DNA of 64,000 nt, from assembly GCA_000004985.1 (NCBI GenBank), contig GG738908.1. One strand, 5' to 3'. A program made the translations under genes and the position numbers. Source of the stretch: Naegleria gruberi (taxonomy: Eukaryota). Under the pieces are notes generated by a model, which was given only the letters and a program-made list of their open reading frames with translations, ran no database searches and was not told the DNA's origin. Positions within the stretch are counted from its first letter, which is position 1. Every line of letters starts with the position of its first letter. Below, in pieces: positions 10,124 through 57,833 of this stretch.

Positions 10124-10325
10124 CCTTAATAAATATTTATATTCTTACTTTTACTGAAGAATAATATTCAGAAATTTAATTATATAGAGGATTACTGAAT
10201 TACTAATCTTGAAAGTTGGTATTTTACAAGATTTAGTCTTTGATCCTTTCTAATGCCCAGTTTCTAATCCATAGTAGGTTTGATATTTTCAGGTGTTTAG
10301 TTATTGCTTAATCACCCTTAAAAAA

Positions 10326-12308
10326 ATGCCACAAGTATCCATTCGGTATGATCAAGGTTTGATATGGGAGAAAAACATCCCTTTTCAAACTGCAGTTTCA
10401 AATGTTCTAGAAGATTTCAAAGCCTTAACCGGTCACTCTTGGAAATTTTACTCTTCAAAGTGGGTGCTAAACGAGAGACTCAGAATAGAACATGATCTGA
10501 TACTTGAGGCAAAACGTACTAACAATCCCATCACAGTTTCGGTTTGCAGATCAAATTTCTTATCTAACGAAATTGTTAATGTAGTAGTTACTCTATCTAG
10601 GGACCAGCAAATAGGGGATGCACTAGAAACGTTTCTCCATGCTAATTCTGGACAGTTTGGTTTTATTATCAACAACAAACCTGTTGTCAGCAGTGATGAG
10701 TGTAGCTGGTATTGCAGAGACAATGTTATCATCATACACGCTACTGTGGCAGCAGTTATGGTTCCTGGTAAAGACTATTCTGTCCACAAAAAACAATACC
10801 TGTTCTTTGACAAAACTTTATTTATCAAACGAGCTATAGAAACAACAGCAGCAGGGTTTCCAATTGTAATTTTAAGACCCAGAAGATTTGGAAAGTCTTT
10901 CAACTTGAGAATGCTTAGGGCATTTGTTGATATTAAGCAAACAGAAGATTTATTTTCAAGAACAAAAATTGAGAAACATATCACATTTTGGGAGAATCAT
11001 TATCACAAACATCCTGTTGTCTCTTTGTCTTTCGGTATGAAACCATTTTCTTCCTTTACTGCGTTTGTTTCGAACCTATGGATGTACATATCTAAGGCGG
11101 CTGAACGCTACCAAGAGTTGGAAACAAGTTCCAAATTGAATGAAATGGAGAAATCTCAATTTAAAAAGATACTCTCAGGCAATTGTGATGAAAGTTCCTT
11201 ATCTTTACTGATTGGCTTACTCTACAGACACTTTAATTCTAAGGTTGTTTTATTGATCGATGAATATGAAACTCCAGTCCTGGCACATATTAATTCAACA
11301 TTTTCAAAAGAGGTTCTAGATTTATTCTTTGGCATGTTCATATTCTTGAAAAATGATGAGTTCATTTTGGAAAAGATACAAACAGTACTTTTTAGTGGGG
11401 TGATTTTATTGAAAGATAAAGGATACCTGTCTGGAATGAATAATTTAGTTGCTTACTCTCTGGATAAAGACAATTACTTTAGTGAAGATTTTGGAGTTAC
11501 TGAAAATGAGCTATGCCAATTTCTTACTACTTTAAGACATGGAGAAGATGTTAGTCTTGAGCTTACCAAATTGAAATCATGGTACAATGGCTATGATGTT
11601 AACAATACTCCCAAATTTCTGTTCAATGTTTGGTCGCTGAGTTGTTATTTCTCGTTTGGTAGAACTGATTATTATTGGATTAAAACAGGATCGATTGATG
11701 AACTTGCAATGTTAATCAACTCATCTTGTGTCGATGTTATTGGTGATCTTGAATTGTTAATCAATGGAAAGGAGATAAGGAAAAAATTCTCTTCAAGTGT
11801 TGACTATAAGGCCCTTTCTTTAGAATGCTCAAGAGAAAAAACCTCACTCTTTTGGCAGATGATGTATTATGCTGGATATTTAACAGGATCTAATTCAAAG
11901 ACCAAACTATTTCATCTTGAGCAACCCAATGAGAATGACGACGATGTGATACGTTTGAGGATTCCAAACTTTGAGGTAAAATCAGCTGTTTGCGAACTAA
12001 TGGAACGCCTTCAAAGACACCCAAATCTAATTCTAAACGAAACTGTTTTTATTGTGCTAACCTTTAAAGGTGCTACACATGCCATCTATCAAACAATTGA
12101 ACTTACCAACTATTACAAATGGATCAATTGTTTCGAAGAGGAACTAGAATGCAAAGGCGTTGATGAAAAGTATTCTATCAAGTACTATTTCCCGAAATTA
12201 GAACAGTACTGTTCATTCACAAAATCTGCATGTAAAACAGTATTTCCTACTTTTACAAATAAAGAATTTAAATTTGTTATTGAAAATAAGATGGAAACTG
12301 ATAAATGA
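10326..12308 (+). CDS. Predicted AAA-ATPase-like domain protein (AAA-ATPase_like/DUF1703 type)
   Basis: The motif FPIVILRPRRFGKSFNLRMLRAFVD matches the 'predicted AAA-ATPase' family P-loop-like RPRRFGKS signature. The true ATG is at 10326; the track start at 10293 is a GTG. Confidence 0.5.
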   Translation: MPQVSIRYDQGLIWEKNIPFQTAVSNVLEDFKALTGHSWKFYSSKWVLNERLRIEHDLILEAKRTNNPITVSVCRSNFLSNEIVNVVVTLSRDQQIGDALETFLHANSGQFGFIINNKPVVSSDECSWYCRDNVIIIHATVAAVMVPGKDYSVHKKQYLFFDKTLFIKRAIETTAAGFPIVILRPRRFGKSFNLRMLRAFVDIKQTEDLFSRTKIEKHITFWENHYHKHPVVSLSFGMKPFSSFTAFVSNLWMYISKAAERYQELETSSKLNEMEKSQFKKILSGNCDESSLSLLIGLLYRHFNSKVVLLIDEYETPVLAHINSTFSKEVLDLFFGMFIFLKNDEFILEKIQTVLFSGVILLKDKGYLSGMNNLVAYSLDKDNYFSEDFGVTENELCQFLTTLRHGEDVSLELTKLKSWYNGYDVNNTPKFLFNVWSLSCYFSFGRTDYYWIKTGSIDELAMLINSSCVDVIGDLELLINGKEIRKKFSSSVDYKALSLECSREKTSLFWQMMYYAGYLTGSNSKTKLFHLEQPNENDDDVIRLRIPNFEVKSAVCELMERLQRHPNLILNETVFIVLTFKGATHAIYQTIELTNYYKWINCFEEELECKGVDEKYSIKYYFPKLEQYCSFTKSACKTVFPTFTNKEFKFVIENKMETDK

Positions 12309-19621: not shown

Positions 19622-21274
19622 ATGAAATTTCAAATCAATAAGGAGCAAATACAGCAATACTTTCATCTACCATTGGAAGAGGCTGCTATCAAGTTGGGAT
19701 GTTGCTCCTCTGTTCTGAAGAGAACATGTAGACAATTAGGTATTAAACGATGGCCCTACCGAAGAATGAAAAGCCTCTCAAAACGACAAAATCAACTCCA
19801 ACAACAATTAACAACCCTCCACGATCAATACATGAAGAGTAGGAAACAATTGGAAGATGTTGAAGGAGAGATGGATGTTATTATCAAGGAAGAATTGAGT
19901 GGTATTGCTGAAGGTGCTACTGTCATTATAGATGATGCAAATATTGATGTTGATCCAACACTGGATTATGATCAGAATGATATTATTAATATTAATACTG
20001 CTTCTTCTTCAACTGGTAATCCTACTACTTTTAACTTTAATAACAACTTTGAAATCATGTTGATTCCTTCATCATCAACATCATCAACATCTTCACCACC
20101 TTCAAGTAGTACATTGGCATCATCGTCTTCGGTATCATCTCTTCCTAATCATCATGTACATACATCATCCTCATATGTTTCTCCACAACAACAACAACCA
20201 TCAAAACCTGTTATTTCTCCATCACAACAACATGTTATTAGAGATGTTGAGTTGAACATGCAGCACAACAACAATAGCAACATGGATATGATGATGCCTA
20301 TTCATAATGCGAGTTCTAATTCGTTCACTGCTCCATCCACATCCTTCAATAACAACCTTCATCGTACAATGTGTGAATCCAATAATGGAGATCCAATTTC
20401 AATGACTACTAACATGCATATTTCTCCTCAGCAACAACAAGTAGGTCATCAGCAACATGCTAACAATCTTTGCAATACATCATTACATGAATCATTTGAC
20501 CATGCTTTTGGAAATGTTGTGAATAATAATCAATTTATGCAATCTTCGCATGTTGATGCTAATAAGCACTCATGTAATGGAATATCAAATACAGCATCAT
20601 CAAGTAGTAGTGGATGGAATAATGAAAAATCAGAATTGGATACATCTCAATATAATAATTTGGATAATGAACACTCGTTCGATGCATCTGTACATGAATC
20701 AATTAATACTGCTGATTATACAACGAGAGGGAGAGGAGGTTATTCATTTCCAAATCATAAACATGATTCAAGTAGGTCACCATCATCAAATTATGCCATG
20801 CAACATGTGGAGCCATGTTTTAGACCATTAATTTCAACATTGGATGGAGTGAATGTAAATGCTGCACTAACTAATGATAGAGGAGTGTTAATGTGGTTTT
20901 CTAAGGGGCTAATGGAAACACTCCCATCCTATTTTAATACAAAGGCAGTGAATAAGGATTATACTAAGGATGATACATTTAAAGGATCAACTATTGATGT
21001 ATATGAATCGTTTTATAGAAGAAGAGCCACACATGGAACTATTAGAATGATTCAGTGCTTTTTTGAAAGATATGTAGTGGTGGATAGTCATGGAGTGATG
21101 CTTGATCATTACTCTGCGCATCCATCTGCTGGATCGCATTACATGTGGTATTTGCATGTGAGGAAGGAAACTGATTTTTCTCTCATTTCATCTTATTTCA
21201 ATCCTTCCGATAGAAATAAGGCACTTCAGTTTGGGGTACCTTATACTTTCGAATTGGAGGATGACAACAAGTAG
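19622..21274 (+). CDS. RWP-RK domain transcription factor (Q/N/S-rich)
   Basis: The N-terminal HLPLEEAAIKLGCCSSVLKRTCRQLGIKRWPYRRMKSL is an RWP-RK DNA-binding motif. It is followed by long poly-S/N/Q low complexity. ATG at 19622. Confidence 0.7.
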   Translation: MKFQINKEQIQQYFHLPLEEAAIKLGCCSSVLKRTCRQLGIKRWPYRRMKSLSKRQNQLQQQLTTLHDQYMKSRKQLEDVEGEMDVIIKEELSGIAEGATVIIDDANIDVDPTLDYDQNDIININTASSSTGNPTTFNFNNNFEIMLIPSSSTSSTSSPPSSSTLASSSSVSSLPNHHVHTSSSYVSPQQQQPSKPVISPSQQHVIRDVELNMQHNNNSNMDMMMPIHNASSNSFTAPSTSFNNNLHRTMCESNNGDPISMTTNMHISPQQQQVGHQQHANNLCNTSLHESFDHAFGNVVNNNQFMQSSHVDANKHSCNGISNTASSSSSGWNNEKSELDTSQYNNLDNEHSFDASVHESINTADYTTRGRGGYSFPNHKHDSSRSPSSNYAMQHVEPCFRPLISTLDGVNVNAALTNDRGVLMWFSKGLMETLPSYFNTKAVNKDYTKDDTFKGSTIDVYESFYRRRATHGTIRMIQCFFERYVVVDSHGVMLDHYSAHPSAGSHYMWYLHVRKETDFSLISSYFNPSDRNKALQFGVPYTFELEDDNK

Positions 21275-30017: not shown

Positions 30018-31364
30018 TTATTCATATTGTGGTTCAGTTTCACCTTCAATATCACCATCAACTTGATCATCGACAGTGGCATCTTGGTATTGTTGATATT
30101 CATTAACCAAATCAGTCAAGTTGGATTCAGCTTCAGTGAATTCCATTTCATCCATACCTTGATCAATGTAAGTGTGTAAGAAGGCCTTTCTCTTGTACAT
30201 TTGTTGGAATTGAGTACCAATTCTCTTGAAAACTTCTTGGATAGCAGTTGAGTTACCAATGAAAGTACCAGAAACCTTTTGACCAACTGGAGGAACATCA
30301 CAAACAGATGACTTGATATTGTTTGGAATCCATTCAACAAAGTTTTGAGAATACTTTCTTTGCATTCCCAACATTTGTTCATCAATTTCGTTAGTTGACA
30401 AGTTAAGACCTCTGAAAGTAGCACTGGCAGCCAAATATTTACCCATAGATGGATCACAAGCAGCCATCATATTCTTCTTATTGAACATTTGTGAAGTCAA
30501 TTCAGCAATTGACAAGGCAGAGTATTGTTGAGATGAAGTAGCAGCCAAAGGAGCAGAACCAACAACGAAGAAGTGCAATCTTGGGAATGGAATCAAATTG
30601 ACAGCCAACTTTCTCAAATCAGAGTTCAATTGACCTGGGAATCTCAAGCTTGAAGTAACACCAGACATGACACCAGCAACCAAATTATTCAAATCAGCAA
30701 ATGATGGTTGTGGTAACTTTAAGGTTCTAGTACAAATATCGAACAATGCTTCATTGTCCAAACAGAAAACTTCATCAGCAGATTCAATCAATTGATGCAA
30801 ACTTAAAGTAGCATTGTATGGTTCAACAACAGTTTCAGACATTTTTGGTGATGGCAAAACAGAGAAAGCAGCCAACATTCTATCAGGGAAATCTTCCTTC
30901 AATTTAGATAACAACAAAGTACCCAAACCAGAACCAGTACCACCACCCAATGAGTGAGTCAATTGGAATCCTTGCAAACATTCACAATGTTCAACTTCCT
31001 TTCTCAAAACATCCATAATTTGGTCAGCCAATTCAGCACCTTCAGTATAATGTCCCTTTGCCCAGTTGTTACCAGCTGAACCTTCAGAAGCAATGAAATT
31101 ATCTGGACGGAACAATGTACCACTCTTTGATGATTTAACAGTGTCTAAAACTGATGATTCTAAATCAACCAAGACACTTCTTGGTACGTAACGGTTTCCT
31201 TGGCTTTCAGAGAAGTAGACACCCAAGTTTTCCTTTAAAATTGGATTAGTTTCGACGAATTCACCATCGGCATTTAAACCATGTTCATTACGAATGGTTT
31301 CCCAGAAATGTTGACCAATTTGGTTACCACATTGACCAACGCTGATTGATACGATTTCTCTCAT
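30018..31364 (-). CDS. Beta-tubulin, a highly divergent paralogue
   Basis: The sequence has [17 protein letters not shown], the GGGTGSG nucleotide loop ([14 protein letters not shown]) and an acidic C-terminus. It has many substitutions relative to canonical beta-tubulins. ATG at 31364. Confidence 0.9.
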
Positions 31365-44677: not shown

Positions 44678-46344
44678 TTAAATACCACCGGCAACTTCTA
44701 ACTCCTTAATTTTCTTATTATTCTTAATCTTCTTGACGTATTGTTTAAACTCTGAACTTTCCAAGAAGTTTTGGTAGGTACCATTTTCGTTAAGAACAAG
44801 TTTGAGTTTTTCAATGGCAATATCAAACAAATCAATTGGGACTTCATCATCATAAGTAATTTGATTGTATCTGTGAATAATTCTCTTCTTTACCTTACCA
44901 GCAATGTTAATTTCATTAAGAGCATCATCCTTGATATAATTTTCAATAATATTTGGAGCCATGTGAGATCTTTCATCAGGTGTAGCTCTCTTATAATTCA
45001 TAACATCCTCATAGAAAAGAATAGTTTCACTGCAAAGGGCTTTCAACAAGTACTTCTTAAATAATTCTCTGGTTACATCATTTTCAAGCATCTTTTCAAT
45101 ACTATTTGGAATTTCCATCTTTCCTAGTTCAGTCATACTCATACCTGTTTTCTTTCTGAGAGCATTATAAGCAAGTAGGAGAACTGGATAGTATAAACAA
45201 GTGGTATGAATTGCTTGAACCCAAATTTGGGCCATAACAACAAATGCAAATGAGAGATTTGTAAATGAAAGAACTGCAAGGAAAATAGTACCAATAATTG
45301 AAATGACAGTAGCAACTCTGATTTCAGTATTCAATGAATAGGAATCGTTAACTTCTCTCAACATGATAACTTCAATCAATAACATGATATCAACAATAAA
45401 CATTAAAGGAACAACAAGTCTAGGGTAGAGAATGTAGGTCATGATTGGATTGTTGGTTTCTCTTTCATTGATTTGACACAAAAAGTCATGAGGACATAAT
45501 CCTGGATAAGCCAAAGAAACTGGAAGCATCAATACAACGACAACAATTAGCATAATGACAAAGAATTTGACAAGATTGCTTTCTTCAGCTCTTCTCTTAT
45601 TGACATTGCTAGTGTTGGTTGCCTTTTGTTTTCTAATCATTTCAGAGACTTCTGTGGCATCAATCAATGTTGGCACATCTTCAACATCAAGAACTGAAAT
45701 TTGATCAGTTTGTAAATCATCTTGATTATTATGACGCCAACCTCTTGTGCTCGTTGATGGTTTTTGTGGTTGTGATGGTGGAGCAGTACTTTCTCCGAGA
45801 CCATCTTCAATGGCTTCACCTTGTTGTTTTGCCTTGTTTTGCAATTTTCTATTCAAGTTTCTTGCATTTCTCCTTTCCTTTGAAATTTCTTCTTGTTTCT
45901 TTTGTTCTGCAATCATCCTGAAGATTAGTTTCGAATAACAACATTGTCATTGAGAATAATTTCCAACACAAGACATTAAAACAATGATGACATTCAAGGT
46001 AAATTATTTCGGTTAATTAATACTTACTTTGAATTCCAGTGGTAGATAAAGTAAATTCTCCAAGCTCTCAACAGCAATGGAGCCCACAGAACATAAAAAC
46101 TTATGTTAGCAACAAGAACAATTAAACTACATGGTGTTTCCGGAATGCTATATGATAGAGTGTAGGCACCTAAATATATGGAAGCACCTATTGATGACAA
46201 GGATGATAGAACAGGAGCTCTTGCACGCATAGACTGATTGTTTCTGAATACAACAATCACAATAGCACAAGCAATACACAACAGAAATTGTAGACACCAC
46301 AATACTATGAAAAGTATTTCAGAGCCTTGTATGCTAAATGTCAT
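44678..46344 (-). CDS. 7TM-RGS protein: a seven-transmembrane receptor-like region fused to a C-terminal RGS domain. Two exons.
   Basis: Exon 1 is 46028..46344 and carries 3 TM helices. The 110-nt intron 45918..46027 runs from AA|GTAAGT (phase 2) to TTCAG|G. Exon 2, 44678..45917, carries a long loop, 4 TM helices and an RGS domain (IEKMLENDVTRELFKKYLLKALCSETILFYEDVMNYKRATPDERSHMAPNIIENYI). The split codon AA|G gives ...HWNS-K-MIAEQ.... Confidence 0.55.
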
Positions 46345-46669: not shown

Positions 46670-48487
46670 TCAAATAGAGCTGTTGACGTTTGAAGTTGTT
46701 CTTGCTACACATGCAGCACCAATAAAATATTTTGCCAATTCTTTGGCATTACTGTCTGCCATTTCTCTCTTCACAATAGGACTTATTGAGGGTTGTTTAG
46801 GTGGTGAGGCAATAATTTCTTCTTCTTCTTTGCTAGAGAGATTATCTTGCTTTGCTTCTTTTTCTGGAGTTTTGTGTGAAATCGAGGTTTTGTTTTCTTG
46901 TTTTACCTTCTTGTTGGAAGAGGGTTTAGTGGAAGATGAGGATGATTGAGATTTAGATGATGAAGGTGTTGATTTGGAGGATCTGGTTACTCTCTTAGTA
47001 ATCTTTACTTCCTCTTCGCTTCCAGAACTTTCGGAAGAAAGTTCTACTTCCTCTTCACTTTCAGAGCTTTCTACCTTTGTTTCTTTTTTTACAGAGGGTC
47101 TTCCACGTTTTCTGGCTGGTTCTTGTTTTGTTGTGATGACTTCCTCTTTCTTCGCCTTAACCTTAGAGAGTTGCTTCTTTATATCTGCTTTGTCTGAAGC
47201 CATCATTATAAACTGTTCCAATGCATTTTTACCATCATATTTGCATTCAGATAGAGAAATTCCACTTTTTTTAGTGCATAGTGGAGAATCACATGAATAT
47301 CTACAGTGAGTACAAACCCAACCTCCATTGTAAAGGTAATGATCAAAATCTCCTAACTCTTTTTTTTCAAAGCAATCCTTGCATGTAGTAACCATACATG
47401 GCAATCTTTGAGTAAATTGGAAGTTTGGATCTGGTTTGCTAATATTGTGTTTTTCATAGAATTCTCTCTTGTTACTAATCTTTGAAATGTCACATATCAT
47501 TCTACAACCCTGTTTTGTTCTGCAAAAATGGCAGTAGAATGTAACAAAACCATATTCTCGTATTGTTTGAGTGAACAATATATCAATAATAAATTCTTCT
47601 TTCTTGGTATTCAATGCATTGATAGAACAAGTTAAGAAACAGGTTTGTTTGATTTTGTTCCTGTCTTCATTGAAAAATTCTGGAAAATCTTCCATAAGGT
47701 TTGTTATTTCCACTGGTAAATCATCCATATCCTCAAGTTCTGGTATGATATCAGTTAAATTTATAATCAGACGTTTGCTTAATTTTTTTACAGGGAATTT
47801 TCTTCCTCCTATCATAACACAGTTTGTAGAATCAATATGTAGGACGGTCACTCCTTTTTTTCTTGGTTTTCTACTTCTCTTTGCAGGCTTCTTTACCTCT
47901 TCTTCATTGATTTCAGTTTCCCCTGTGTTTTCTTCATTGATTTCTTCAGTCCTTACCACTTCCTCGTTTATAATTGGATCAATTGGTTTCTCCTCCTGTT
48001 CTTCTATTAATTCCTTCTGTTCTTCCTTTTTTTCTTCCTCAACTGCAGTTTCACAAATAGCAGGTATTGGTGGAGCTTCATGCATTGGATCCTTTATATT
48101 CGGTGAATCGACATTATCACTAGTTACATCCATCATGAGTTGGGTTGCATTCTCCACAGAATCACTGGTAAATGAAGTATTCATCAAGCTTGGGGAATCT
48201 TGTGATTGAACATTCTTAAAAAATCTTCTCTTCTTTTTCGGAGATGTTACCACTTGAACACTACCACCACTATCATTATCATGATGATTTGTTGGTGATG
48301 TTGGCTCATCTATTGGTGGAGGTGGGTTGATTTGATGATCATTAACTTGACTTGATTCTTTATCAATATTAATACTACTAGAAGAAGAGGTTGATGTTTC
48401 CGTTGAATAAGATTCCAATGATGATGATAACTGTGATTCTTCCAAAGCACCAGAGCGACGAATAAACCTTCTAGGTTTGTGAGACAT
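46670..48487 (-). CDS. Nuclear-type protein with an AT-hook (PARKRGRPS), a Cys-rich zinc-finger-like cluster and S/E/K-rich tails
   Basis: The AT-hook core is RKRGRP. The Cys/His cluster is CFLTC...CHFCRTKQGCRMIC...CMVTTCKDC...CTHCRYSCDSPLC. The termini are highly charged and Ser-rich. ATG at 48487. Confidence 0.5.
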   Translation of the reverse strand: MSHKPRRFIRRSGALEESQLSSSLESYSTETSTSSSSSINIDKESSQVNDHQINPPPPIDEPTSPTNHHDNDSGGSVQVVTSPKKKRRFFKNVQSQDSPSLMNTSFTSDSVENATQLMMDVTSDNVDSPNIKDPMHEAPPIPAICETAVEEEKKEEQKELIEEQEEKPIDPIINEEVVRTEEINEENTGETEINEEEVKKPAKRSRKPRKKGVTVLHIDSTNCVMIGGRKFPVKKLSKRLIINLTDIIPELEDMDDLPVEITNLMEDFPEFFNEDRNKIKQTCFLTCSINALNTKKEEFIIDILFTQTIREYGFVTFYCHFCRTKQGCRMICDISKISNKREFYEKHNISKPDPNFQFTQRLPCMVTTCKDCFEKKELGDFDHYLYNGGWVCTHCRYSCDSPLCTKKSGISLSECKYDGKNALEQFIMMASDKADIKKQLSKVKAKKEEVITTKQEPARKRGRPSVKKETKVESSESEEEVELSSESSGSEEEVKITKRVTRSSKSTPSSSKSQSSSSSTKPSSNKKVKQENKTSISHKTPEKEAKQDNLSSKEEEEIIASPPKQPSISPIVKREMADSNAKELAKYFIGAACVARTTSNVNSSI

Positions 48488-51365: not shown

Positions 51366-54300
51366 TTAAATTGTTGTTGGATTATCAAAATGAACATCAA
51401 TAACATCAATAGTAGAGAAGGTCTTCATGGCAATGCTATATGGCTGTCTGTGGCCTATGGTCGGAGTTGTAGAATCACGATGTTCAAATCTAAAAGCATT
51501 TTGAGAAGAATTTGATTGTAATGTGGAGGAAGTCACAACTCTTTCGTATTGAGGATTAGGAGGAGCCTCCTTGTTGGTTTCCTTTGCATTATCCCTCTTT
51601 CTCTTTTCTCTCACTATAATACAGCCAACAGTTATTGGAATAGCGATGAAACAACCACAACAGATAAATATTGGAATCAAGATTACAGCAGCTGCTCCAC
51701 TACTGTCATTGCTAAGTGGTGCGTTAATGTCATTTGGAAGAGTTTGTTCAAGGTAATCAGCAGTTATTCCAACCATTGAATTGTTCATGAGGTTGGAAAG
51801 AGAGGATAAATCACACAAACAATGGACAATGAGAGTTTGTTCACTTGCTTTGATATCTGTCAATAATTGGAAAGATGTCTTGACAAATTTACAACTTGAT
51901 TCAGTTTCAAAATTTGTAAAATCAAGAGTCAAACTGCATCTGAATGTTTGATTGGTTCTTGAACTGATTGGTGCAATATAGGATGGAATTGGAATATTGA
52001 TATGAACACTTCCTGTCAATGAATTTGAAATGTTCAATTGTGAAACATATTCCTTTTTTACATCTTCAACTTTTCTTGATAATTTGGTTGGGAATTTGAA
52101 TAATGAATTTGCAATATTGACCATTTGAATGGTGGAAATCATGGAAACACTAAAAGAGACCAATGAACTATTAGAATTGGAGAAGGAAAAACTATTTGAG
52201 TTCAGTGCTGAAATAGATGTTTTTACAGCATTAATAGAAACCAAATTGGATGGTTTTTCACCTGGGAAAAAGTCTAAAGTTGTCAATTCTGTTTTAGTAC
52301 CCAAAGAAATAGCAGCATTCACAATTGAAGATGCCAATTTGATGGTTGATGTTTCTGGAATCTTTGATGCGACATTTACCAAAATTTCAGAAAGTGAATT
52401 TGAAGAATCTGATGACCAAACAGCTGCCTTACTTGAAATATCAACAAACTTGTTAATCATGTCAACAGTTTTCGATGTAGTTTCTTCTGTTAAGAATTGA
52501 GGTTTTGAAAGTACTTTGACTTGGTTCATGTAATTGGACATGTCTTCAGAAGTGACTGAATTTTGTGCAAGATTTGTATCTAATTGAGTAGAAAGAGATG
52601 TTGCTGTTGCATTTAAGGCGAGTGGAATAATTTTAGAAATTTCACTAATGACAGAATTATTTTGGGCCACTGTACCGATATTAGAAACAATTGAAATAAC
52701 CAAATCATTGCTCTTATGGAAATCATTTGTTGGACTTGATAACGAGTTTGAAAGAGAGGAAACTACATCATTTGTGAACAAACTATTGGTACTGAACTCG
52801 ATGACGTTTGTCAACTTGATAGGCATTGTTAGTTTACCACCAGTTTTGGTGTCTGAAAAGAGAATTTTGAAATTTGAACCAAATTTTGTAGTCTTGAAGG
52901 ATATTGGGAAGGATACCGATGTTGCAACGATACTATCTTCATTAAGAAGTGTCATACTAATGGTAGAGAGTGGATTTCCCATGGTACAAGAAAGCTTTCC
53001 AATTGTAAAACCAACTTCAAGTTTAGAAGGAGTGATGGTACAATCTTTGAGTTTGATTTGATCAGATAGAGAATCTTGTACAGTGACTGGAACTGTAACA
53101 TCTGTAACGTCGCTGGTTCCCATCAAGGAGAGGGTAAAGTATTTACCAACATTTTGAATTGTTGAATCTTTGGATTTGAGTTTTCCGTTTTTATATTGCA
53201 ATGGGAGTAAGTATCTCGTACCACTAACAAAAATTGAAGCTAATGGATATCTTTCAAATTGTGAACCAATGTAACGAATATCAACTTGGCAATTAGAAGC
53301 TTGGGATGTCAAAATATCCAAAAAGTAAGTTGTAGATTCTTCCAAGGATGGAATAACATTATTAACTTTCATACCAGTTAAAGTTGCTCCAAGTACGTTG
53401 CATGATGATACATCTATGCGAGTATCAGGGATGAATGAAACCACTTGGGTGGATTTTCCAATGACAACTGGTTGATTTTCAGAATTGGTCATGAGGTTCA
53501 ATAAATCAGGGGCTGGTGCTACTGAATAATAATATGATTGGAGACATGCAACTGTAAAGGTATGATCAATGGTCATATTAAAATCAGGGTAAATTGTATT
53601 CACTGGTACTGAAACAGTTGCAGAGGAAGTCTCTAAACTAATCTTCCTGTACACGTGATTATTTTCCAACAGCAGGAAAACAATTGATTTTTGTAAAGAC
53701 TCTGCACCATAATAATTCTTGCAAGTGAGTGTAATACTAGGAATTCTGGATGGCTTATACACAATCAGTGATTCCTTGATCAAAACAGTTGGAGCAATCA
53801 TTTGTAATTGGAATGGAAGTGTTGTACCATCAATAAGTTCTATTGTGAATGACAAATTCTCACTGAATGTTTTTGGTTTGATAACAATTGCTTTTTCAGT
53901 TGTTTCCCAATTAAAATAATAAGTTGGATAGGTAGAATGGACTTGGAAGGAAACAGTTCTGGCGTCGACACATTCTTGATTCTCAGCGAAGAATTGGGCA
54001 AGGGGTATTGTTGCTTGCGTAGAGGTCATTACAATCTTGGTTGTTGGAACTTTGAGTAGTAATTTTGGATAGGATCCTTCGATTGGGAACGAAAGGTTTT
54101 TGGTGTATGTTAAACCAAAATTAGAAATCACACTGACAGACATGTCAATAGTAGAAAGCTTTAAAATATCTGAAACATATGGGAAAGTCCATTCCAATTG
54201 ATTTTGGGAATTTTGAATGGCATCACTCACTAATTTGTTAGACATTAAGGCAACTGAATTTCCTGTCAATTCCCAAGTCATTGCTTGGAAATTTCCATGT

Positions 54301-57300
54301 TCTGGTTGAGAATATTCAGCCTTAACATTGCTTTCAAAACATCTATTCATCGATTTGGAACTGATCTTTCCATTGGAAATTTTAGCAGAAACTCCATCAT
54401 AATAATGTTGGAAGGAGCTCAAAAAGGCACTCACATCTAATTGGACGGAAACGTATTTGTCAGACTTTGGATTCGACCAAAATACGTTGAACATTATTGG
54501 TTCTCTTGGACTGAAGATTGCATCTGATTGAGATACATATGCTTTGATGGTATATCTGTAACTGTGCAGGTCAGAATTCAATCTATTTTCTGTTACATAA
54601 CATAGCATTGGATAAGAAGTGGAACTCTTGGTGACTAACTTGTCAATATTTCCAAATATTTTCTCGCAATCCACCTTTGAACTAGTGTATCTGTAATTAC
54701 TATTGGTAACAATGCTGAAAGCTGCCAATTTTTTTCCAATTCCCCAAAGATTTTGATCCATATTCAAGTCAACTGAATAATCAAAATAGGTAGCTTGATC
54801 TGATTCCAAGAAATTGAAACAATCATCACCAAAGTGAGCTCCTATACAACCAGAACACGATTGTCCAGTGTAATAGTCGAGACATTGTTCACAATAAGTA
54901 CCATTGGATCTCGTATTGCATTTACAAACATTGTAGGAGGTACAAGTTCCTCTATAATTACAAACTGATTCTTCAGAGTGTGGTACATTGTCACATGTCC
55001 AATTTCCACACTTTGACCCATAGTAACCGGTAATGCAATCTTGGCAGGTATCTCCCTTAATAGTTTCCGATTCACAGACACAGATGTTTACAGATTTACA
55101 ATGACCTCTTGCTGAACAAACGGCTGGTGAAGAATTTTCAATTCCTCCACATGTCCATTTTTCACAATGAGTGCCATAATAACCATCTTCACAAGTTTGG
55201 CAATTACTACCAATGGATTTTGGTCTCGTACAAGAGCAAGTATCGAGAGCTGTACATATACCATTTCCATTGCAAACATTTGGATCCATGAAATGAGTTC
55301 CATTACATGTGAATTGTTCACAATTTTCACCAAAATATCCATCAGTACAGTTACAGTTATTGTAATCAACACATGTACCCTTAGAGGAACAGACTCTTGG
55401 TTGTGAGCTATCAGTTCCGTTACAACCAAAACTTTGACACATGCTTCCGTAATAACCAGTCTTGCAAGAACAAATACCAGGTTTCACACAAGTACCTTGC
55501 CCAGAGCAAACATCAGTTTCGTTTGCTACTTTCCCAAAACAAATTGGAAGTTCACAATTTTTACCTGCATAACCAGTACTACATTCACACAAGTCAATGT
55601 CCGTACATTTTCCATGGTTTGAACAGACACCATAACTACTCTTGGAAATTCCAAAACATGCGGCTTCAATTTCACAAGCATCACCATAATAACTACGATC
55701 ACAAGCACAGGTACTATTGAAAAAACAAGTACCTCTTCCATGACAAGATCCTGAATTGTAGCTTGACAAATCTTCACAAAAACCATAAGGAACACAAGTA
55801 CCTGAATCACTAGGAGAAATGGATGCAGAACAAGAGCAAGTGTTTGGACCAGTACATTTACCTTTTCCATTGCATACATTAGGGTTGGTAGCTTCGAGAT
55901 CATAACAAACAGGAGTATTACAGGAGGCCCCTGTGTAGCCACTTGCACATGAATATGTTGGCCAGTAGCCATAATGGTACCAAATGGAATCAACAACAGC
56001 GCCACAAGACATGGATGCTCCAACTAAATCGAGGCCACTAGGGACGTACTCAATATTACCACCCCAGCAACCATTTGCACCGTAGCTGTTCTTATTAGTA
56101 TCAAATCTAATACATGCCAATGTTGTGGATGCCCAAATCCAGAAACCATAGTCTCTATACTCGTGATGAATTTTAGTGATGTATTCATCATCAGCAAGTG
56201 TAAATTCAGTTTCCCGATTATCGCTGCTACCAATTGATTGACTGGTACCATCTCTAAACCTGAATTCGATACCGTACACATAGTCACTACTGTGTTTAAT
56301 TTTCATTCCTTTGATAAATTTAGATGTTGACTGCGGTGAACTCGTTTTACCTCCGTAGCTTGCACTACTTGTCACATACTGATATTCTGTACCTAAATAA
56401 TAACCATTAGAACTAAAAGACAAGGCTTTCAACTCTTTGGAAGTACCAGAAAGTCTAATGTAAATGATTGGCTTTTGCTCGCCTACATAATTATTGGAAT
56501 TCACAATAGGACTTGATGTTGAGACGATAAAACTATCAGTAATATCGTATTCTGTTGATAGTTGTTGAACTTGAATGATTTTTCCTTCCAGATGTCTGAA
56601 TCGGAATTGATACACACTCTTAGATTGAGCTTGCATAGTTCTGCTATTACCATCCACAATTGAATAAGGATCAGCGCTTGTACCAGTAATGACTGTTGCA
56701 ATGGTATTGTCTCGCTCAATTGACAATGAATGGATCTTGAAATAATCTTGTTTGAACTGGGAAATTTGAATGAAATTCTTTGTGAATGTAAATGTTGTCT
56801 TGATATAATCATATTGCAGAAGGAAGATATTTGGAGAGATTGCATTTCCATTCAAAAAACAATCAGCTTCACATGACAAGAGAATGTTGAGCTTCCCCAA
56901 TGAATCGAACTTAATTTTTGGAGTGGGAATCATGGCAGATGAACTGTGGAAGACTTTCTGAGAATGGACATAGGATCCATCCTTTGGATTTAACAATAGA
57001 ACCCATAGGGAAGACTGATGAGGTAAATATTCCTTATTTTCCCCATCAATGATCAGTTGGAATTCTTGTGTATCAAAGAACGAAACAACAACCCGATCAT
57101 ATACTACCGAGTAGTGAATAGCCATAACTTTACACTTTGTTGTGTCTTCACAACCTGCTATTGCCTTCTTTAGAATAACTTGATCTTTGTAAATGATCAA
57201 GTAAATTTGATATCCTTTCTGCATAATGAAGTATCTCTTTCCGCTTACATTGTCAATGTACATTGCTTGAATAGAATATCCAATCAAATTACTAAAAGGG

Positions 57301-57833
57301 GTGACAGATTGTACAACTCCTGCTGATGAAAGAGTTGCCATAAATGGTATATTCTTAAAGCTTGAGAATGTCTGTGAGGTGACTTGGAAACGTCCAATAC
57401 AAACTGGATACTGAGCAACAAAATACCCAGTCAACAATATATCTGCTTTGGAATTGAGGAATGTAATAGATTCACCCTCAAGTTGTGCTCCTCCACAATC
57501 ATCCTTTATGTTTACCTCCAGGAAGGAATTAAAAGTTTCACCAGAACGAACATTTCCCTGAATCATCACTCGTGAGGAATTTAAACTTGGAAGTGGAACC
57601 TTAATCAACATGTAATGTTTTTCATTATTGTCGGAAATTACATCCACAAAGGACGAACCCTCCCCAAGTGTTTTAATGGTACTGTCAAAATTCTTGATGA
57701 GGCCGTATTTGCAGTTTGGTGCAATCTTGGTCATATCTGAGCAAGGTTCCCCTAAACCTGCCTTAATCACATCAAATATTGAACATGATACAATTAAGAA
57801 AATTAGAACAAACGGCAAGACTGTTGTTCTCAT
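51366..57833 (-). CDS. Giant (2155 aa) type-I transmembrane glycoprotein: signal peptide, beta-rich N-terminal domain, jacalin-like lectin-type segment, ~14 tandem EGF-like/tenascin-type repeats, a long S/T-rich stalk, a TM helix and a short cytoplasmic tail
   Basis: The signal peptide is MRTTVLPFVLIFLIVSCSIFDVIKA. The EGF-like repeats take the form C..G.C.....C.C..GY.G..C. The TM helix is AAAVILIPIFICCGCFIAIPITVGCIIV, followed by REKRKRD. ATG at 57833. Confidence 0.8.
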   Translation of the reverse strand: MRTTVLPFVLIFLIVSCSIFDVIKAGLGEPCSDMTKIAPNCKYGLIKNFDSTIKTLGEGSSFVDVISDNNEKHYMLIKVPLPSLNSSRVMIQGNVRSGETFNSFLEVNIKDDCGGAQLEGESITFLNSKADILLTGYFVAQYPVCIGRFQVTSQTFSSFKNIPFMATLSSAGVVQSVTPFSNLIGYSIQAMYIDNVSGKRYFIMQKGYQIYLIIYKDQVILKKAIAGCEDTTKCKVMAIHYSVVYDRVVVSFFDTQEFQLIIDGENKEYLPHQSSLWVLLLNPKDGSYVHSQKVFHSSSAMIPTPKIKFDSLGKLNILLSCEADCFLNGNAISPNIFLLQYDYIKTTFTFTKNFIQISQFKQDYFKIHSLSIERDNTIATVITGTSADPYSIVDGNSRTMQAQSKSVYQFRFRHLEGKIIQVQQLSTEYDITDSFIVSTSSPIVNSNNYVGEQKPIIYIRLSGTSKELKALSFSSNGYYLGTEYQYVTSSASYGGKTSSPQSTSKFIKGMKIKHSSDYVYGIEFRFRDGTSQSIGSSDNRETEFTLADDEYITKIHHEYRDYGFWIWASTTLACIRFDTNKNSYGANGCWGGNIEYVPSGLDLVGASMSCGAVVDSIWYHYGYWPTYSCASGYTGASCNTPVCYDLEATNPNVCNGKGKCTGPNTCSCSASISPSDSGTCVPYGFCEDLSSYNSGSCHGRGTCFFNSTCACDRSYYGDACEIEAACFGISKSSYGVCSNHGKCTDIDLCECSTGYAGKNCELPICFGKVANETDVCSGQGTCVKPGICSCKTGYYGSMCQSFGCNGTDSSQPRVCSSKGTCVDYNNCNCTDGYFGENCEQFTCNGTHFMDPNVCNGNGICTALDTCSCTRPKSIGSNCQTCEDGYYGTHCEKWTCGGIENSSPAVCSARGHCKSVNICVCESETIKGDTCQDCITGYYGSKCGNWTCDNVPHSEESVCNYRGTCTSYNVCKCNTRSNGTYCEQCLDYYTGQSCSGCIGAHFGDDCFNFLESDQATYFDYSVDLNMDQNLWGIGKKLAAFSIVTNSNYRYTSSKVDCEKIFGNIDKLVTKSSTSYPMLCYVTENRLNSDLHSYRYTIKAYVSQSDAIFSPREPIMFNVFWSNPKSDKYVSVQLDVSAFLSSFQHYYDGVSAKISNGKISSKSMNRCFESNVKAEYSQPEHGNFQAMTWELTGNSVALMSNKLVSDAIQNSQNQLEWTFPYVSDILKLSTIDMSVSVISNFGLTYTKNLSFPIEGSYPKLLLKVPTTKIVMTSTQATIPLAQFFAENQECVDARTVSFQVHSTYPTYYFNWETTEKAIVIKPKTFSENLSFTIELIDGTTLPFQLQMIAPTVLIKESLIVYKPSRIPSITLTCKNYYGAESLQKSIVFLLLENNHVYRKISLETSSATVSVPVNTIYPDFNMTIDHTFTVACLQSYYYSVAPAPDLLNLMTNSENQPVVIGKSTQVVSFIPDTRIDVSSCNVLGATLTGMKVNNVIPSLEESTTYFLDILTSQASNCQVDIRYIGSQFERYPLASIFVSGTRYLLPLQYKNGKLKSKDSTIQNVGKYFTLSLMGTSDVTDVTVPVTVQDSLSDQIKLKDCTITPSKLEVGFTIGKLSCTMGNPLSTISMTLLNEDSIVATSVSFPISFKTTKFGSNFKILFSDTKTGGKLTMPIKLTNVIEFSTNSLFTNDVVSSLSNSLSSPTNDFHKSNDLVISIVSNIGTVAQNNSVISEISKIIPLALNATATSLSTQLDTNLAQNSVTSEDMSNYMNQVKVLSKPQFLTEETTSKTVDMINKFVDISSKAAVWSSDSSNSLSEILVNVASKIPETSTIKLASSIVNAAISLGTKTELTTLDFFPGEKPSNLVSINAVKTSISALNSNSFSFSNSNSSLVSFSVSMISTIQMVNIANSLFKFPTKLSRKVEDVKKEYVSQLNISNSLTGSVHINIPIPSYIAPISSRTNQTFRCSLTLDFTNFETESSCKFVKTSFQLLTDIKASEQTLIVHCLCDLSSLSNLMNNSMVGITADYLEQTLPNDINAPLSNDSSGAAAVILIPIFICCGCFIAIPITVGCIIVREKRKRDNAKETNKEAPPNPQYERVVTSSTLQSNSSQNAFRFEHRDSTTPTIGHRQPYSIAMKTFSTIDVIDVHFDNPTTI

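What the first reader, a model, noticed from the sequence alone, without database searches (positions are those of the whole stretch)
44678..46344. 7TM-RGS fusion gene (a GPCR-like receptor with a built-in GTPase-activating domain), visible only after splicing
The ORF 46024..46344 has 3 TM helices. It ends exactly at a GTAAGT donor, and its stop codon TAA is part of that donor. A 110-nt intron with acceptor TTCAG joins it in phase 2 to the ORF 44678..45916, which has 4 more TM helices and a canonical RGS domain. 7TM-RGS proteins are a rare architecture and are thought to act as self-regulating G-protein receptors. Known examples are AtRGS1 in plants and a few protists. Finding one here is notable.
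Basis: partly seen in the sequence, partly recalled or inferred. Interest (0 to 1): 0.65.

Follow-up and report, generated by a model that had tools for sequence, protein, structure and literature searches.

The report
Spliced 7TM-RGS gene, a known Naegleria type
The two reading frames do splice into one gene for a seven-helix membrane protein with a built-in G-protein "off-switch" (RGS) domain, but Naegleria amoebae are already known to carry dozens of such genes, so this is a correct and fairly ordinary find.

Summary
On the minus strand, exon 1 (46344..46028) joins exon 2 (45917..44678) across a 110-nt GTAAGT...CAG intron in phase 2. The product is 518 aa. Orthologues in Naegleria lovaniensis and Willaertia magna have one intron at the same codon and phase. 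A metagenomic relative encodes the whole protein in one uninterrupted ORF.

The claim of rarity fails. N. fowleri has 28 published 7TM-RGS proteins, three of them with shown GAP activity, and the architecture occurs in many eukaryotic lineages. At least 93 related proteins were retrieved here.

The most likely function is a membrane-anchored GAP for Gα, gated by the 7TM domain. This is inferred. Three RGS4 contact positions are substituted, and this orthologue group has never been assayed. It is a new member of a known kind, of low to moderate interest.

The parts
46028..46344 (-). Exon 1 (317 nt). It holds the start codon at 46344-46342, residues 1-105 and the first two bases of codon 106. 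It encodes an 8-residue extracellular N-terminus, TM1, TM2 and TM3.
   Evidence: The start and the N-terminal sequence M[TVS]F..G.E are shared with orthologues. Pfam 7tm_3 matches aa 9-107.
45918..46027 (-). Intron, 110 nt, phase 2, GTAAGT...TTCAG. The apparent TAA stop of the first ORF is bases 2-4 of the donor.
   Evidence: Orthologues have an intron at the same position and phase (L001 6321-6446, L002 6321-6410). The intron is absent in L003, where the ORF is continuous.
44678..45917 (-). Exon 2 (1240 nt including the TAA stop at 44678-44680). It encodes the ICL2 insertion, TM4-TM7 and the RGS domain. The ATG at 45916 directly after the acceptor is an internal Met, not a conserved start.
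   Evidence: Orthologues have Leu, Met or Gln at this position and no conserved Met.
46249..46326 (-). TM1 (aa 7-32)
   Evidence: Helix in the AF2 model of orthologue P0001, mapped onto the window protein. Hydropathy peak of 2.91.
46147..46215 (-). TM2 (aa 44-66)
   Evidence: AF2 helix mapped onto the window protein. It is preceded by the inside loop RNNQSMRARAP, which has 3 Arg.
46063..46131 (-). TM3 membrane part (aa 72-94). Cys72 lies at the outer end. Arg93 and Arg96 lie at the cytoplasmic end (class C K/R3.50-type position). The helix continues into the cytoplasm to about aa 134.
   Evidence: In alignment A2, C72 is conserved in 26/27 sequences, R93 in 28/28 and R96 in 22/28. These residues align with the Cys and the K..R of mGlu7.
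45584..45913 (-). Exon-2 part of the ICL2 insertion (aa 108-217). It consists of a charged helical extension of TM3, a variable and disordered middle, and a conserved acidic/basic segment WR..DVEDVPTL.DATEVSEM.RK...NKRRAEESNL (aa 166-221, 45572-45739) that leads as a helix into TM4.
   Evidence: Identity to P0001 is 24% for aa 107-165 and 70% for aa 166-221. pLDDT is below 50 for P0001 145-216, while the flanking helices 73-138 and 223-272 are confident. Of the 72 family members fetched here that cover the whole 7TM profile, 36 have an insertion of 22-493 aa at this site.
45509..45583 (-). TM4 (aa 218-242). It is followed by ECL2, which carries Cys247 and Cys253.
   Evidence: C253 is conserved in 29/29 sequences of A2 and aligns with the ECL2 Cys of mGlu7.
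45362..45445 (-). TM5 (aa 264-291)
   Evidence: Hydropathy segment 263-296. AF2 helix 274-291.
45269..45334 (-). TM6 (aa 301-322), with Glu304 at the cytoplasmic end (class C E6.35-type position).
   Evidence: E304 is conserved in 30/30 sequences of A2 and aligns with the Glu of mGlu7.
45164..45253 (-). TM7 (aa 328-357), with Pro350 and then a basic juxtamembrane stretch LRKK.
   Evidence: P350 is conserved in 24/30 sequences, and the next residue is never the Lys of the class C 'PK' motif.
44738..45103 (-). RGS domain (aa 378-499) on the cytoplasmic side. It is followed by a basic tail that ends in the conserved sequence E.AGGI.

Best explanation
This is a single two-exon gene of a Naegleria-like amoeba. 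It encodes a 518-aa seven-transmembrane RGS protein.

Shown here:
- The splice, and the conservation of the intron position in two orthologues.
- Seven TM helices with the N-terminus outside and the RGS domain in the cytoplasm.
- A 7TM bundle of the class C (glutamate/GABA-B/GPR158) type with no extracellular ligand-binding domain.
- A long, partly conserved cytoplasmic insertion between TM3 and TM4.
- A complete RGS fold that keeps the catalytically central Asn (N443, equivalent to RGS4 N128) and Glu (E403, equivalent to RGS4 E87).

Inferred mechanism:
- The protein sits in the plasma membrane as a tethered GTPase-activating protein. It binds the transition state of one or more of the many Naegleria Gα subunits and speeds GTP hydrolysis, which holds them off.
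- A signal sensed within the 7TM bundle changes the access, orientation or membrane residence of the RGS domain, and so releases or tightens that brake. With no ectodomain, the signal would be a small or lipophilic ligand, or a partner protein.
- Signal-driven modification of the large ICL2 is an alternative route to the same effect.
- This is the AtRGS1 / Nf 7TM-RGS logic of a receptor-regulated GAP, not a classical GEF receptor.
For: Gene model. The upstream neighbour is conserved in L001 and L002.

Topology: 31 Lys+Arg in inside loops against 1 outside. The AF2 model has pLDDT 82.8 and pTM 0.77.

Class C likeness:
- 7tm_3 scores 40.6 bits against a gathering threshold of 33.5. With the loop deleted, the match spans profile positions 8-246 of 251.
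- A 7TM-only family profile hits mGlu7 (E=4.9e-4) and mGlu4 (E=1.6e-3) across all seven helices. The TM3 Cys, TM3 basic residues, ECL2 Cys and TM6 Glu align with theirs.
- These residues are nearly invariant in the family. PMC3727952 lists them as class C / GABA-B hallmarks.

RGS domain. E403 is conserved in 30/30 sequences and N443 in 25/30.

Functional precedent in the same genus: the RGS domains of Nf 7TM RGS2, 3 and 4 accelerate GTP hydrolysis on Nf Gα2, 3, 5 and 7. They bind the AlF4- state and are blocked by the switch-I G-to-S mutation. Gα5 and Gα7 self-activate (PMC9283941).
Against: - No expression, localisation or activity data exist for this gene or its orthologues. The N. fowleri proteins that were assayed are much larger (1215-2459 aa) and carry EGF, lectin and GPS ectodomains. 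They are not this orthologue group.
- Three positions that contact Gα in RGS4 are substituted: N88 to T404, D163 to G485 and R167 to N489. The RGS4 numbering is from my own knowledge; the alignments are. Many family members keep N, D and R at these positions. GAP strength or Gα specificity may therefore differ.
- The conserved class C 'ionic-lock' residues would suit a genuine G-protein-activating receptor equally well.
- The structure model is of the orthologue P0001.
Confidence: 0.65

Rival explanations
1. It is a true G-protein-activating receptor with a built-in terminator, which is the first reader's 'self-regulating receptor'. The class-C-like 7TM domain would act as a GEF on a slow-exchanging Gα, and the tethered RGS domain would then switch the same Gα off quickly, giving brief, sharpened pulses.
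For: The class C activation residues are conserved: TM3 Arg93/Arg96 and TM6 Glu304 (listed as crucial for GABA-B activation in PMC3727952). Naegleria has both slow- and fast-exchanging Gα subunits, and both kinds interact with 7TM RGS proteins (PMC9283941). That paper identified only one conventional GPCR candidate in N. fowleri, so something else may supply GEF activity.
Against: No 7TM-RGS protein in the papers read here has been shown to have GEF activity. ICL2 helps class C receptors couple to G proteins (my own knowledge), and here it is interrupted by a 125-aa insertion. The TM7 'PK' motif lacks its Lys.
Confidence: 0.2
2. The RGS domain is a non-catalytic Gα- or protein-binding module, as in GRK, axin, SNX13 or RGS-RhoGEF-like domains. 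The protein would then be a scaffold or an effector-type Gα target, not a GAP.
For: Three RGS4 contact positions are substituted (T404, G485, N489), and these substitutions are kept across the orthologue group. PMC3971589 notes that some RGS domains have lost GAP activity. SNX13 and GRK1 RGS domains appear among the structural matches.
Confidence: 0.12
3. These are two separate genes: a 106-aa three-TM protein and a 412-aa four-TM RGS protein that starts at the ATG at 45916. The splice signals would be coincidental.
For: Each ORF has its own ATG and stop. Gene callers that do not model introns have called the pieces separately in other assemblies: P0008 is 107 aa, and P0004 and P0006 lack exon 1.
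Against: The intron position and phase are conserved in two genera. An intronless relative has one continuous ORF. The Met at the start of exon 2 is not conserved. Only the joined product gives a full 7tm_3 match and a 7TM fold. The 537-aa N. fowleri RefSeq model, XP_044568125.1, is about the length of the other full-length orthologues.
Confidence: 0.03

Closest known systems
Naegleria fowleri 7TM RGS family (28 members; Nf 7TM RGS1-4 studied; Bosch, Jeck & Siderovski, J Biol Chem 2022, PMC9283941)
   Same: It shares the same genus-level lineage and the same architecture of a 7TM domain followed by a C-terminal cytoplasmic RGS box. The RGS domain is canonical and R4-like. An N. fowleri orthologue exists (XP_044568125.1, 537 aa).
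   Different: The characterised members are 1215-2459 aa with EGF, lectin and GPS ectodomains and are described as adhesion-GPCR-like. This protein is 518 aa with an 8-residue N-terminus, a class-C-like 7TM bundle and a large TM3-TM4 insertion. Its own RGS domain has not been assayed.
Arabidopsis AtRGS1 and plant RGS1 proteins
   Same: They have the same domain order and similar size (about 460 aa against 518), a short N-terminus and no ectodomain. AtRGS1 is a GAP for a self-activating Gα. It is the functional model adopted here.
   Different: Sequence homology of the 7TM halves could not be shown. hhalign gave probabilities of 4-18%. The 7TM-only profile hit 2 of 120 plant RGS1 proteins, at no more than 15.6 bits. 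Plant RGS1 proteins reach at best 27.6 bits on 7tm_3, below the threshold. Plant proteins lack the ICL2 insertion and have a longer Ser-rich C-terminal tail (the tail is from my own knowledge).
Mammalian orphan class C receptors GPR158/GPR179 in complex with RGS7-Gβ5
   Different: In mammals the RGS protein is a separate polypeptide recruited in trans. GPR158 also has its own extracellular domain. Here the RGS domain is fused in cis directly after TM7, and there is no ectodomain.
Class C GPCR 7TM domains (Pfam 7tm_3: GABA-B, mGlu, CaSR, TAS1R, GPR156, GPRC5D)
   Different: There is no ligand-binding ectodomain, the Lys of the TM7 PK motif is absent, ICL2 carries a 125-aa insertion, and an RGS domain is fused at the C-terminus.

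Membership tests
7TM-RGS architecture (as defined in Bradford 2013, de Mendoza 2014 and Bosch 2022) | Seven transmembrane helices N-terminal to the RGS domain, on one polypeptide | tested here: met
7TM-RGS architecture (as defined in Bradford 2013, de Mendoza 2014 and Bosch 2022) | RGS box present and located on the cytoplasmic side | tested here: met
   Pfam RGS scores 67.4 bits against a cut-off of 23.9. The positive-inside count is 31 to 1, which places the C-terminus in the cytoplasm.
7TM-RGS architecture (as defined in Bradford 2013, de Mendoza 2014 and Bosch 2022) | RGS domain accelerates GTP hydrolysis on a cognate Gα | not testable with these tools
   The only evidence is precedent from other N. 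fowleri 7TM RGS proteins.
Plant RGS1 (AtRGS1) family, in the sense of common descent of the whole protein | 7TM region detectably homologous to that of plant RGS1 | tested here: inconclusive
   hhalign gave probability 17.7% for A3 against Camelina RGS1, and 4.4% for A3 against the plant 7TM profile A4. The A3 HMM hits 2 of 120 plant proteins at no more than 15.6 bits. One plant RGS1 gives a sub-threshold, full-length 7tm_3 match of 27.6 bits, so a distant link is not excluded.
Class C GPCR 7TM domain (Pfam PF00003, 7tm_3) | Match to the 7tm_3 profile above Pfam's gathering score | tested here: met
   The window protein scores 40.6 bits against 33.5, and the loop-deleted construct scores 40.7 bits over profile positions 8-246 of 251. 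Most of the score comes from TM1-3.
Class C GPCR 7TM domain (Pfam PF00003, 7tm_3) | Fold closest to solved class C 7TM domains | tested here: met
Class C GPCR 7TM domain (Pfam PF00003, 7tm_3) | TM3-top/ECL2 cysteine pair, basic residues at the cytoplasmic end of TM3, and an acidic residue at the cytoplasmic end of TM6 | tested here: met
   C72, C253, R93/R96 and E304 are nearly invariant in the family and align with the corresponding mGlu7 residues. The feature list comes from PMC3727952.
Class C GPCR 7TM domain (Pfam PF00003, 7tm_3) | PK motif in TM7 | tested here: not met
   Pro350 is conserved in 24/30 sequences but is followed by V, L, T, A or I, never K.
Class C GPCR 7TM domain (Pfam PF00003, 7tm_3) | Extracellular Venus-flytrap or other ligand-binding domain | tested here: not met
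   Only 6-8 residues precede TM1. The orthologues start at the same Met, and the upstream gene ends 325 nt away. Some class C orphans also lack a flytrap domain; GPR158 is the one documented here.
Class C GPCR 7TM domain (Pfam PF00003, 7tm_3) | Activates heterotrimeric G proteins (GEF) | not testable with these tools
   No data are available.
Catalytically competent (R4-like) RGS domain | Nine-helix RGS fold | tested here: met
Catalytically competent (R4-like) RGS domain | Asn equivalent to RGS4 Asn128 and Glu equivalent to RGS4 Glu87 | tested here: met
   N443 lies in NEINIAG and E403 in CSETILFY. Both are invariant in the five orthologues. Across the wider family they are conserved in 25/30 and 30/30 sequences. 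The RGS4 numbering is from my own knowledge.
Catalytically competent (R4-like) RGS domain | Other Gα-contact residues (RGS4 Asn88, Asp163, Arg167) | tested here: not met
   The window protein has T404, G485 and N489. The commonest residues in the family at these positions are N, D and R.

The most novel reading that the evidence does not exclude
The small 7TM-RGS proteins without an ectodomain, to which this gene belongs, may form a coherent and so far unnamed family that spans several eukaryotic supergroups. Members were found in Heterolobosea (Naegleria, Willaertia, Acrasis), Amoebozoa (Cavostelium, Clastostelium), Colponema and many environmental protists. Their 7TM domain is a genuine class C receptor domain, and their TM3-TM4 loop is a hot spot for regulatory insertions. 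If this holds, the pairing of a class C 7TM domain with an RGS GAP is ancient. Mammals would have kept it in trans (GPR158/GPR179 with RGS7), and plant RGS1 may be a diverged remnant. That would link the 'GAP receptor' and 'GEF receptor' branches of G-protein signalling through one ancestral receptor class.
Probability: 0.3. Interest if true: 0.5.

Novelty: new member of a known kind. Interest (0 to 1): 0.22.

Why it matters
For annotation, the case is a useful reminder that the gene is easily split. Intron-blind callers, and at least two N. fowleri gene models, lose the first three helices. A 7TM-RGS receptor is then filed as a plain 'RGS domain-containing protein'.

Biologically, it adds one orthologue to a large, published Naegleria family that is being considered as a drug-target class in N. 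fowleri. The modestly new points are the class C character of the 7TM bundle, the conserved TM3-TM4 cytoplasmic insertion, and the breadth of the related protist family. These bear on how receptor-linked GAPs and conventional GPCRs are related, but none of them overturns current views.

Tried and rejected
I used the N. lovaniensis orthologue P0001 as a proxy for the structure.
- Exact look-up of the neighbouring 605-aa ORF found nothing. The window's tubulin matched only an ENA metagenome contig. The source organism is therefore inferred, not identified.
- A single-sequence search of the loop-deleted 7TM region against PDB sequences gave no hit. The 21-sequence profile was needed to get one.
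- A word-indexed search with the 7TM-only profile returned only 4 proteins and nothing from plants.
- Homology of the 7TM half to plant RGS1 was tested three ways and not demonstrated. I therefore do not file the gene in the AtRGS1 family by descent.
Only the database sequences it returned were used afterwards.
- The afdb50 fold library was unavailable.
- Anantharaman 2011 and Bradford 2013 are not held in the library. Their content is cited only through papers that cite them.
- I checked whether the neighbouring 2155-aa EGF/jacalin protein (51366-57833) is a second, large 7TM-RGS gene. It has a signal-like N-terminal segment and one C-terminal TM helix, and no RGS match at Pfam E<=1e-5.
- The alternative acceptor 11 nt downstream (gcAG at 45907) would shift the frame and stop after about 20 codons (my reading). 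I rejected it.
Full report
**1. The observation**

On the minus strand, ORF 46344..46024 (106 aa) ends in a TAA that forms bases 2-4 of a GTAAGT hexamer starting at 46027. ORF 45916..44678 (412 aa) begins one base after a TTCAG acceptor. Removing 46027..45918 (110 nt, 27% GC against 34% for the coding sequence) joins a 317-nt exon to a 1240-nt exon in phase 2. This rebuilds an AAG codon and gives a 1557-nt CDS of 518 aa.

**2. Is the splice real?**

Comparative evidence says yes.

- The spliced product finds full-length homologues: 547 aa in Naegleria lovaniensis (66% identity by BLASTP, 69% in alignment A1), 594 aa in Willaertia magna (50% / 57%), and a 503-aa metagenomic protein (68% / 71%).
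- The N. fowleri orthologue is XP_044568125.1, 537 aa.
- In the N. lovaniensis and W. magna genomes the annotated gene has exactly one intron. It is GT..AG and phase 2, starts at gene position 321, and is 126 nt and 90 nt long respectively. This is the homologous codon, since the window protein has a one-residue deletion upstream.
- The metagenomic relative has no intron. Once the true upstream ATG is used, one uninterrupted ORF runs from MVFEIQGSE... through all seven helices to the RGS domain.
- The Met that opens the second ORF is not conserved; the residue after the junction Lys/Arg is Leu, Met or Gln in the orthologues.
- The upstream neighbour, a 605-aa protein with a weak zf-4CXXC_R1 match, is conserved in both reference genomes. 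The loci are therefore orthologous.

The 'two separate genes' reading can be set aside. Intron-blind callers do produce the fragments: P0008 is 107 aa, and P0004 and P0006 lack exon 1.

**3. Source organism**

The window has 33% GC and intron-poor, closely packed genes. Its identities to Naegleria and Willaertia proteins indicate a Naegleria-like heterolobosean. No protein I looked up is on record from a named genome. The tubulin at 30018-31364 is identical only to one from an ENA metagenome contig. The species is therefore not identified.

**4. Anatomy of the protein**

Pfam gives RGS (aa 378-499, E=1.9e-18, whole profile) and 7tm_3 (aa 9-107, E=3.1e-10, 40.6 bits against a cut-off of 33.5). 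When residues 108-212 are deleted, the 7tm_3 match extends over profile positions 8-246 of 251 at the same score.

An AlphaFold2 model of the N. lovaniensis orthologue, built with a 31-sequence alignment, has pLDDT 82.8 and pTM 0.77 and shows seven TM helices. TM3 and TM4 both extend far into the cytoplasm as helices (P0001 73-138 and 223-272) around a disordered tip (145-216). A nine-helix RGS domain follows TM7 directly. Mapped onto the window protein, the helices are:

| Helix | Residues |
|---|---|
| TM1 | 7-32 |
| TM2 | 44-66 |
| TM3 | 72-94 (continuing to ~134) |
| TM4 | 218-242 |
| TM5 | 264-291 |
| TM6 | 301-322 |
| TM7 | 328-357 |

The inside loops hold 31 Lys+Arg and the outside loops hold 1, so the N-terminus is out and the RGS domain is cytoplasmic. 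Only about 8 residues precede TM1, so there is no ectodomain.

The TM3-TM4 loop has a variable half (24% identity to N. lovaniensis) and a conserved half (70%). The conserved half reads WR..DVEDVPTL.DATEVSEM.RK..NKRRAEESNL.

**5. What kind of 7TM domain?**

- A 21-sequence profile of the 7TM part alone hits mGlu7 (E=4.9e-4) and mGlu4 (E=1.6e-3) over all seven helices. The family's TM3-top Cys, TM3 'R..R', ECL2 Cys and pre-TM6 Glu align with the receptor's C, K..R, C and E.
- These are the residues PMC3727952 lists as class C / GABA-B hallmarks. In the family they are close to invariant: C72 26/27, R93 28/28, C253 29/29, E304 30/30.
- The TM7 Pro is present, but the Lys of the 'PK' motif is not.

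**6. The RGS domain**

Using RGS4 numbering (my own knowledge), Glu87 and Asn128 are kept as E403 and N443, the latter in an EINI motif. Asn88, Asp163 and Arg167 are replaced by T404, G485 and N489. In the wider family the commonest residues at those three positions are N, D and R. The fold and catalytic core are canonical, but the contact surface is somewhat unusual.

**7. How common is it?**

An exhaustive HMMER search of 1.84 billion cluster representatives with the orthologue found 279 proteins at E<=0.001, many of them multi-TM plus RGS. Of 31 aligned sequences (29 proteins plus the window's two exon translations), 30 have RGS and 14 have 7tm_3 at E<=0.01. Ninety-three of the proteins fetched match the 7TM-only profile at 40 bits or more. 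Seventy-two cover the whole 7TM profile, and 36 of these have an insertion of 22-493 aa between TM3 and TM4.

Named sources include N. lovaniensis paralogues, Willaertia, Acrasis kona, Cavostelium, Clastostelium and Colponema.

**8. What is already known**

Bosch, Jeck & Siderovski (2022, PMC9283941) report 28 7TM RGS proteins in N. fowleri. The RGS domains of three of them are selective GAPs for Nf Gα2, 3, 5 and 7. These domains bind the AlF4- state and are blocked by the switch-I G-to-S mutation. Gα5 and Gα7 self-activate. The proteins tested are 1215-2459 aa with EGF, lectin and GPS ectodomains, so they are not this orthologue group.

de Mendoza et al. (2014, PMC3971589) find 7TM-RGS architectures in many bikonts and in chytrids, filastereans and ichthyosporeans. 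PMC5784254 cites a count of 229 RGS genes in N. gruberi. The architecture is therefore neither rare nor new in this lineage.

I did not find a paper that calls the 7TM part of such proteins class C. However, the two most relevant older papers were not available.

**9. Relation to AtRGS1**

They share the domain order and size. Their 7TM half could not be linked to this family by sequence:

- hhalign probabilities were 4-18%.
- The 7TM-only HMM hit 2 of 120 plant proteins, at 15.6 bits or less.
- Only one of six plant proteins gave a 7tm_3 match, and it was sub-threshold at 27.6 bits.

The gene works like AtRGS1 as far as one can infer. Membership of one family by descent is unproven.

**10. 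Mechanism**

The best-supported model is a plasma-membrane-tethered GAP for one or more Naegleria Gα subunits, with output controlled through the class-C-like bundle, the large ICL2, or both.

The steps shown are the gene structure, the topology, the two folds and the conserved residues. The steps inferred are the GAP activity, the target Gα, the ligand and how the signal is passed on.

The rivals are a real GEF receptor with a built-in terminator, and a non-catalytic RGS scaffold. Both remain open and can be separated by the assays listed under next steps.

The mammalian GPR158-RGS7 complex is an instructive parallel. GPR158 is a class C 7TM receptor without a flytrap domain, and its job is to position an RGS GAP at the membrane. 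It appears among the top structural matches. There the RGS protein is recruited in trans.

**11. Verdict**

The claim of rarity is not supported. This is a new orthologue of a known and published kind of Naegleria gene. It has some modestly interesting, undescribed details: a class C bundle, an ICL2 insertion and a broad protist family. Interest is 0.22.

Noticed in passing
window 51366-57833 (-): A 2155-aa ORF two genes upstream has a hydrophobic N-terminal segment, a jacalin-like lectin domain, EGF/teneurin-type EGF repeats and a single TM helix near the C-terminus. It has no RGS match at Pfam E<=1e-5. Its ectodomain make-up recalls the EGF and lectin ectodomains of the large N. fowleri 7TM RGS proteins, but this is a single-pass protein.
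   Followed up: partly
window 46670-48487 (-): The 605-aa Ser/Glu-rich ORF directly upstream has a weak zf-4CXXC_R1 match (E=8e-4). It is the conserved upstream neighbour of the 7TM-RGS gene in N. lovaniensis (L001) and Willaertia (L002), which shows micro-synteny across genera.
   Followed up: partly
L003 4565-6277 (JGI metagenome 3300002220): This is an intronless relative of the gene. The metagenome's gene caller started it at an internal ATG and lost TM1. The real ORF starts about 80 nt upstream (MVFEIQGSE...). It is an example of intron loss, or of intron gain in the Naegleria/Willaertia line.
   Followed up: yes
P0004 (459 aa) and P0006 (429 aa, CAG4715911.1), N. fowleri gene models: Two of the three N. 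fowleri-type models of the orthologue lack exon 1 (TM1-3). P0004 starts with residues that do not align with the other orthologues. Only XP_044568125.1 (537 aa) appears complete. Counts of 7TM-RGS genes based on such annotations may be too low.
   Followed up: partly
window 30018-31364 (-); L004: The 448-aa tubulin ORF has an exactly identical product only on a 2.6-kb ENA metagenome contig (ERZ929261), and none in a named genome. The 605-aa neighbour has no exact match at all. The window's organism seems absent from the named genomes in the collection.
   Followed up: partly
window 19622-21274 (+): A 550-aa ORF has an N-terminal RWP-RK domain (E=4.8e-23), a transcription-factor family best known from plants and algae.
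   Followed up: no
window 10293-12308 (+): A 671-aa ORF matches the 'Predicted AAA-ATPase' family PF09820 (E=7.5e-28).
   Followed up: no
window 40852-42570 and 42589-43458 (-): Two long ORFs on the same strand are separated by only 18 nt, just downstream of the 7TM-RGS gene. Neither has a Pfam match. They are probably one gene interrupted by a stop, a very short intron or a frame change.
   Followed up: no
family alignment A2/A3 (proteins P0001-P0165): The TM3-TM4 cytoplasmic loop is a hot spot for insertions across the protist 7TM-RGS family. Of 72 full-length matches, 36 have inserts, ranging from 22 to 493 aa. In the modelled orthologue, TM3 and TM4 extend as a long cytoplasmic helical hairpin.
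   Followed up: partly
P0022 (Cavostelium) and P0044 (Clastostelium), EukProt transcriptomes: Multi-TM RGS proteins of this family occur in amoebozoan transcriptomes. de Mendoza et al. 2014 reported no TM-linked RGS proteins in the amoebozoans they sampled. Contamination of the transcriptomes was not excluded.
   Followed up: no
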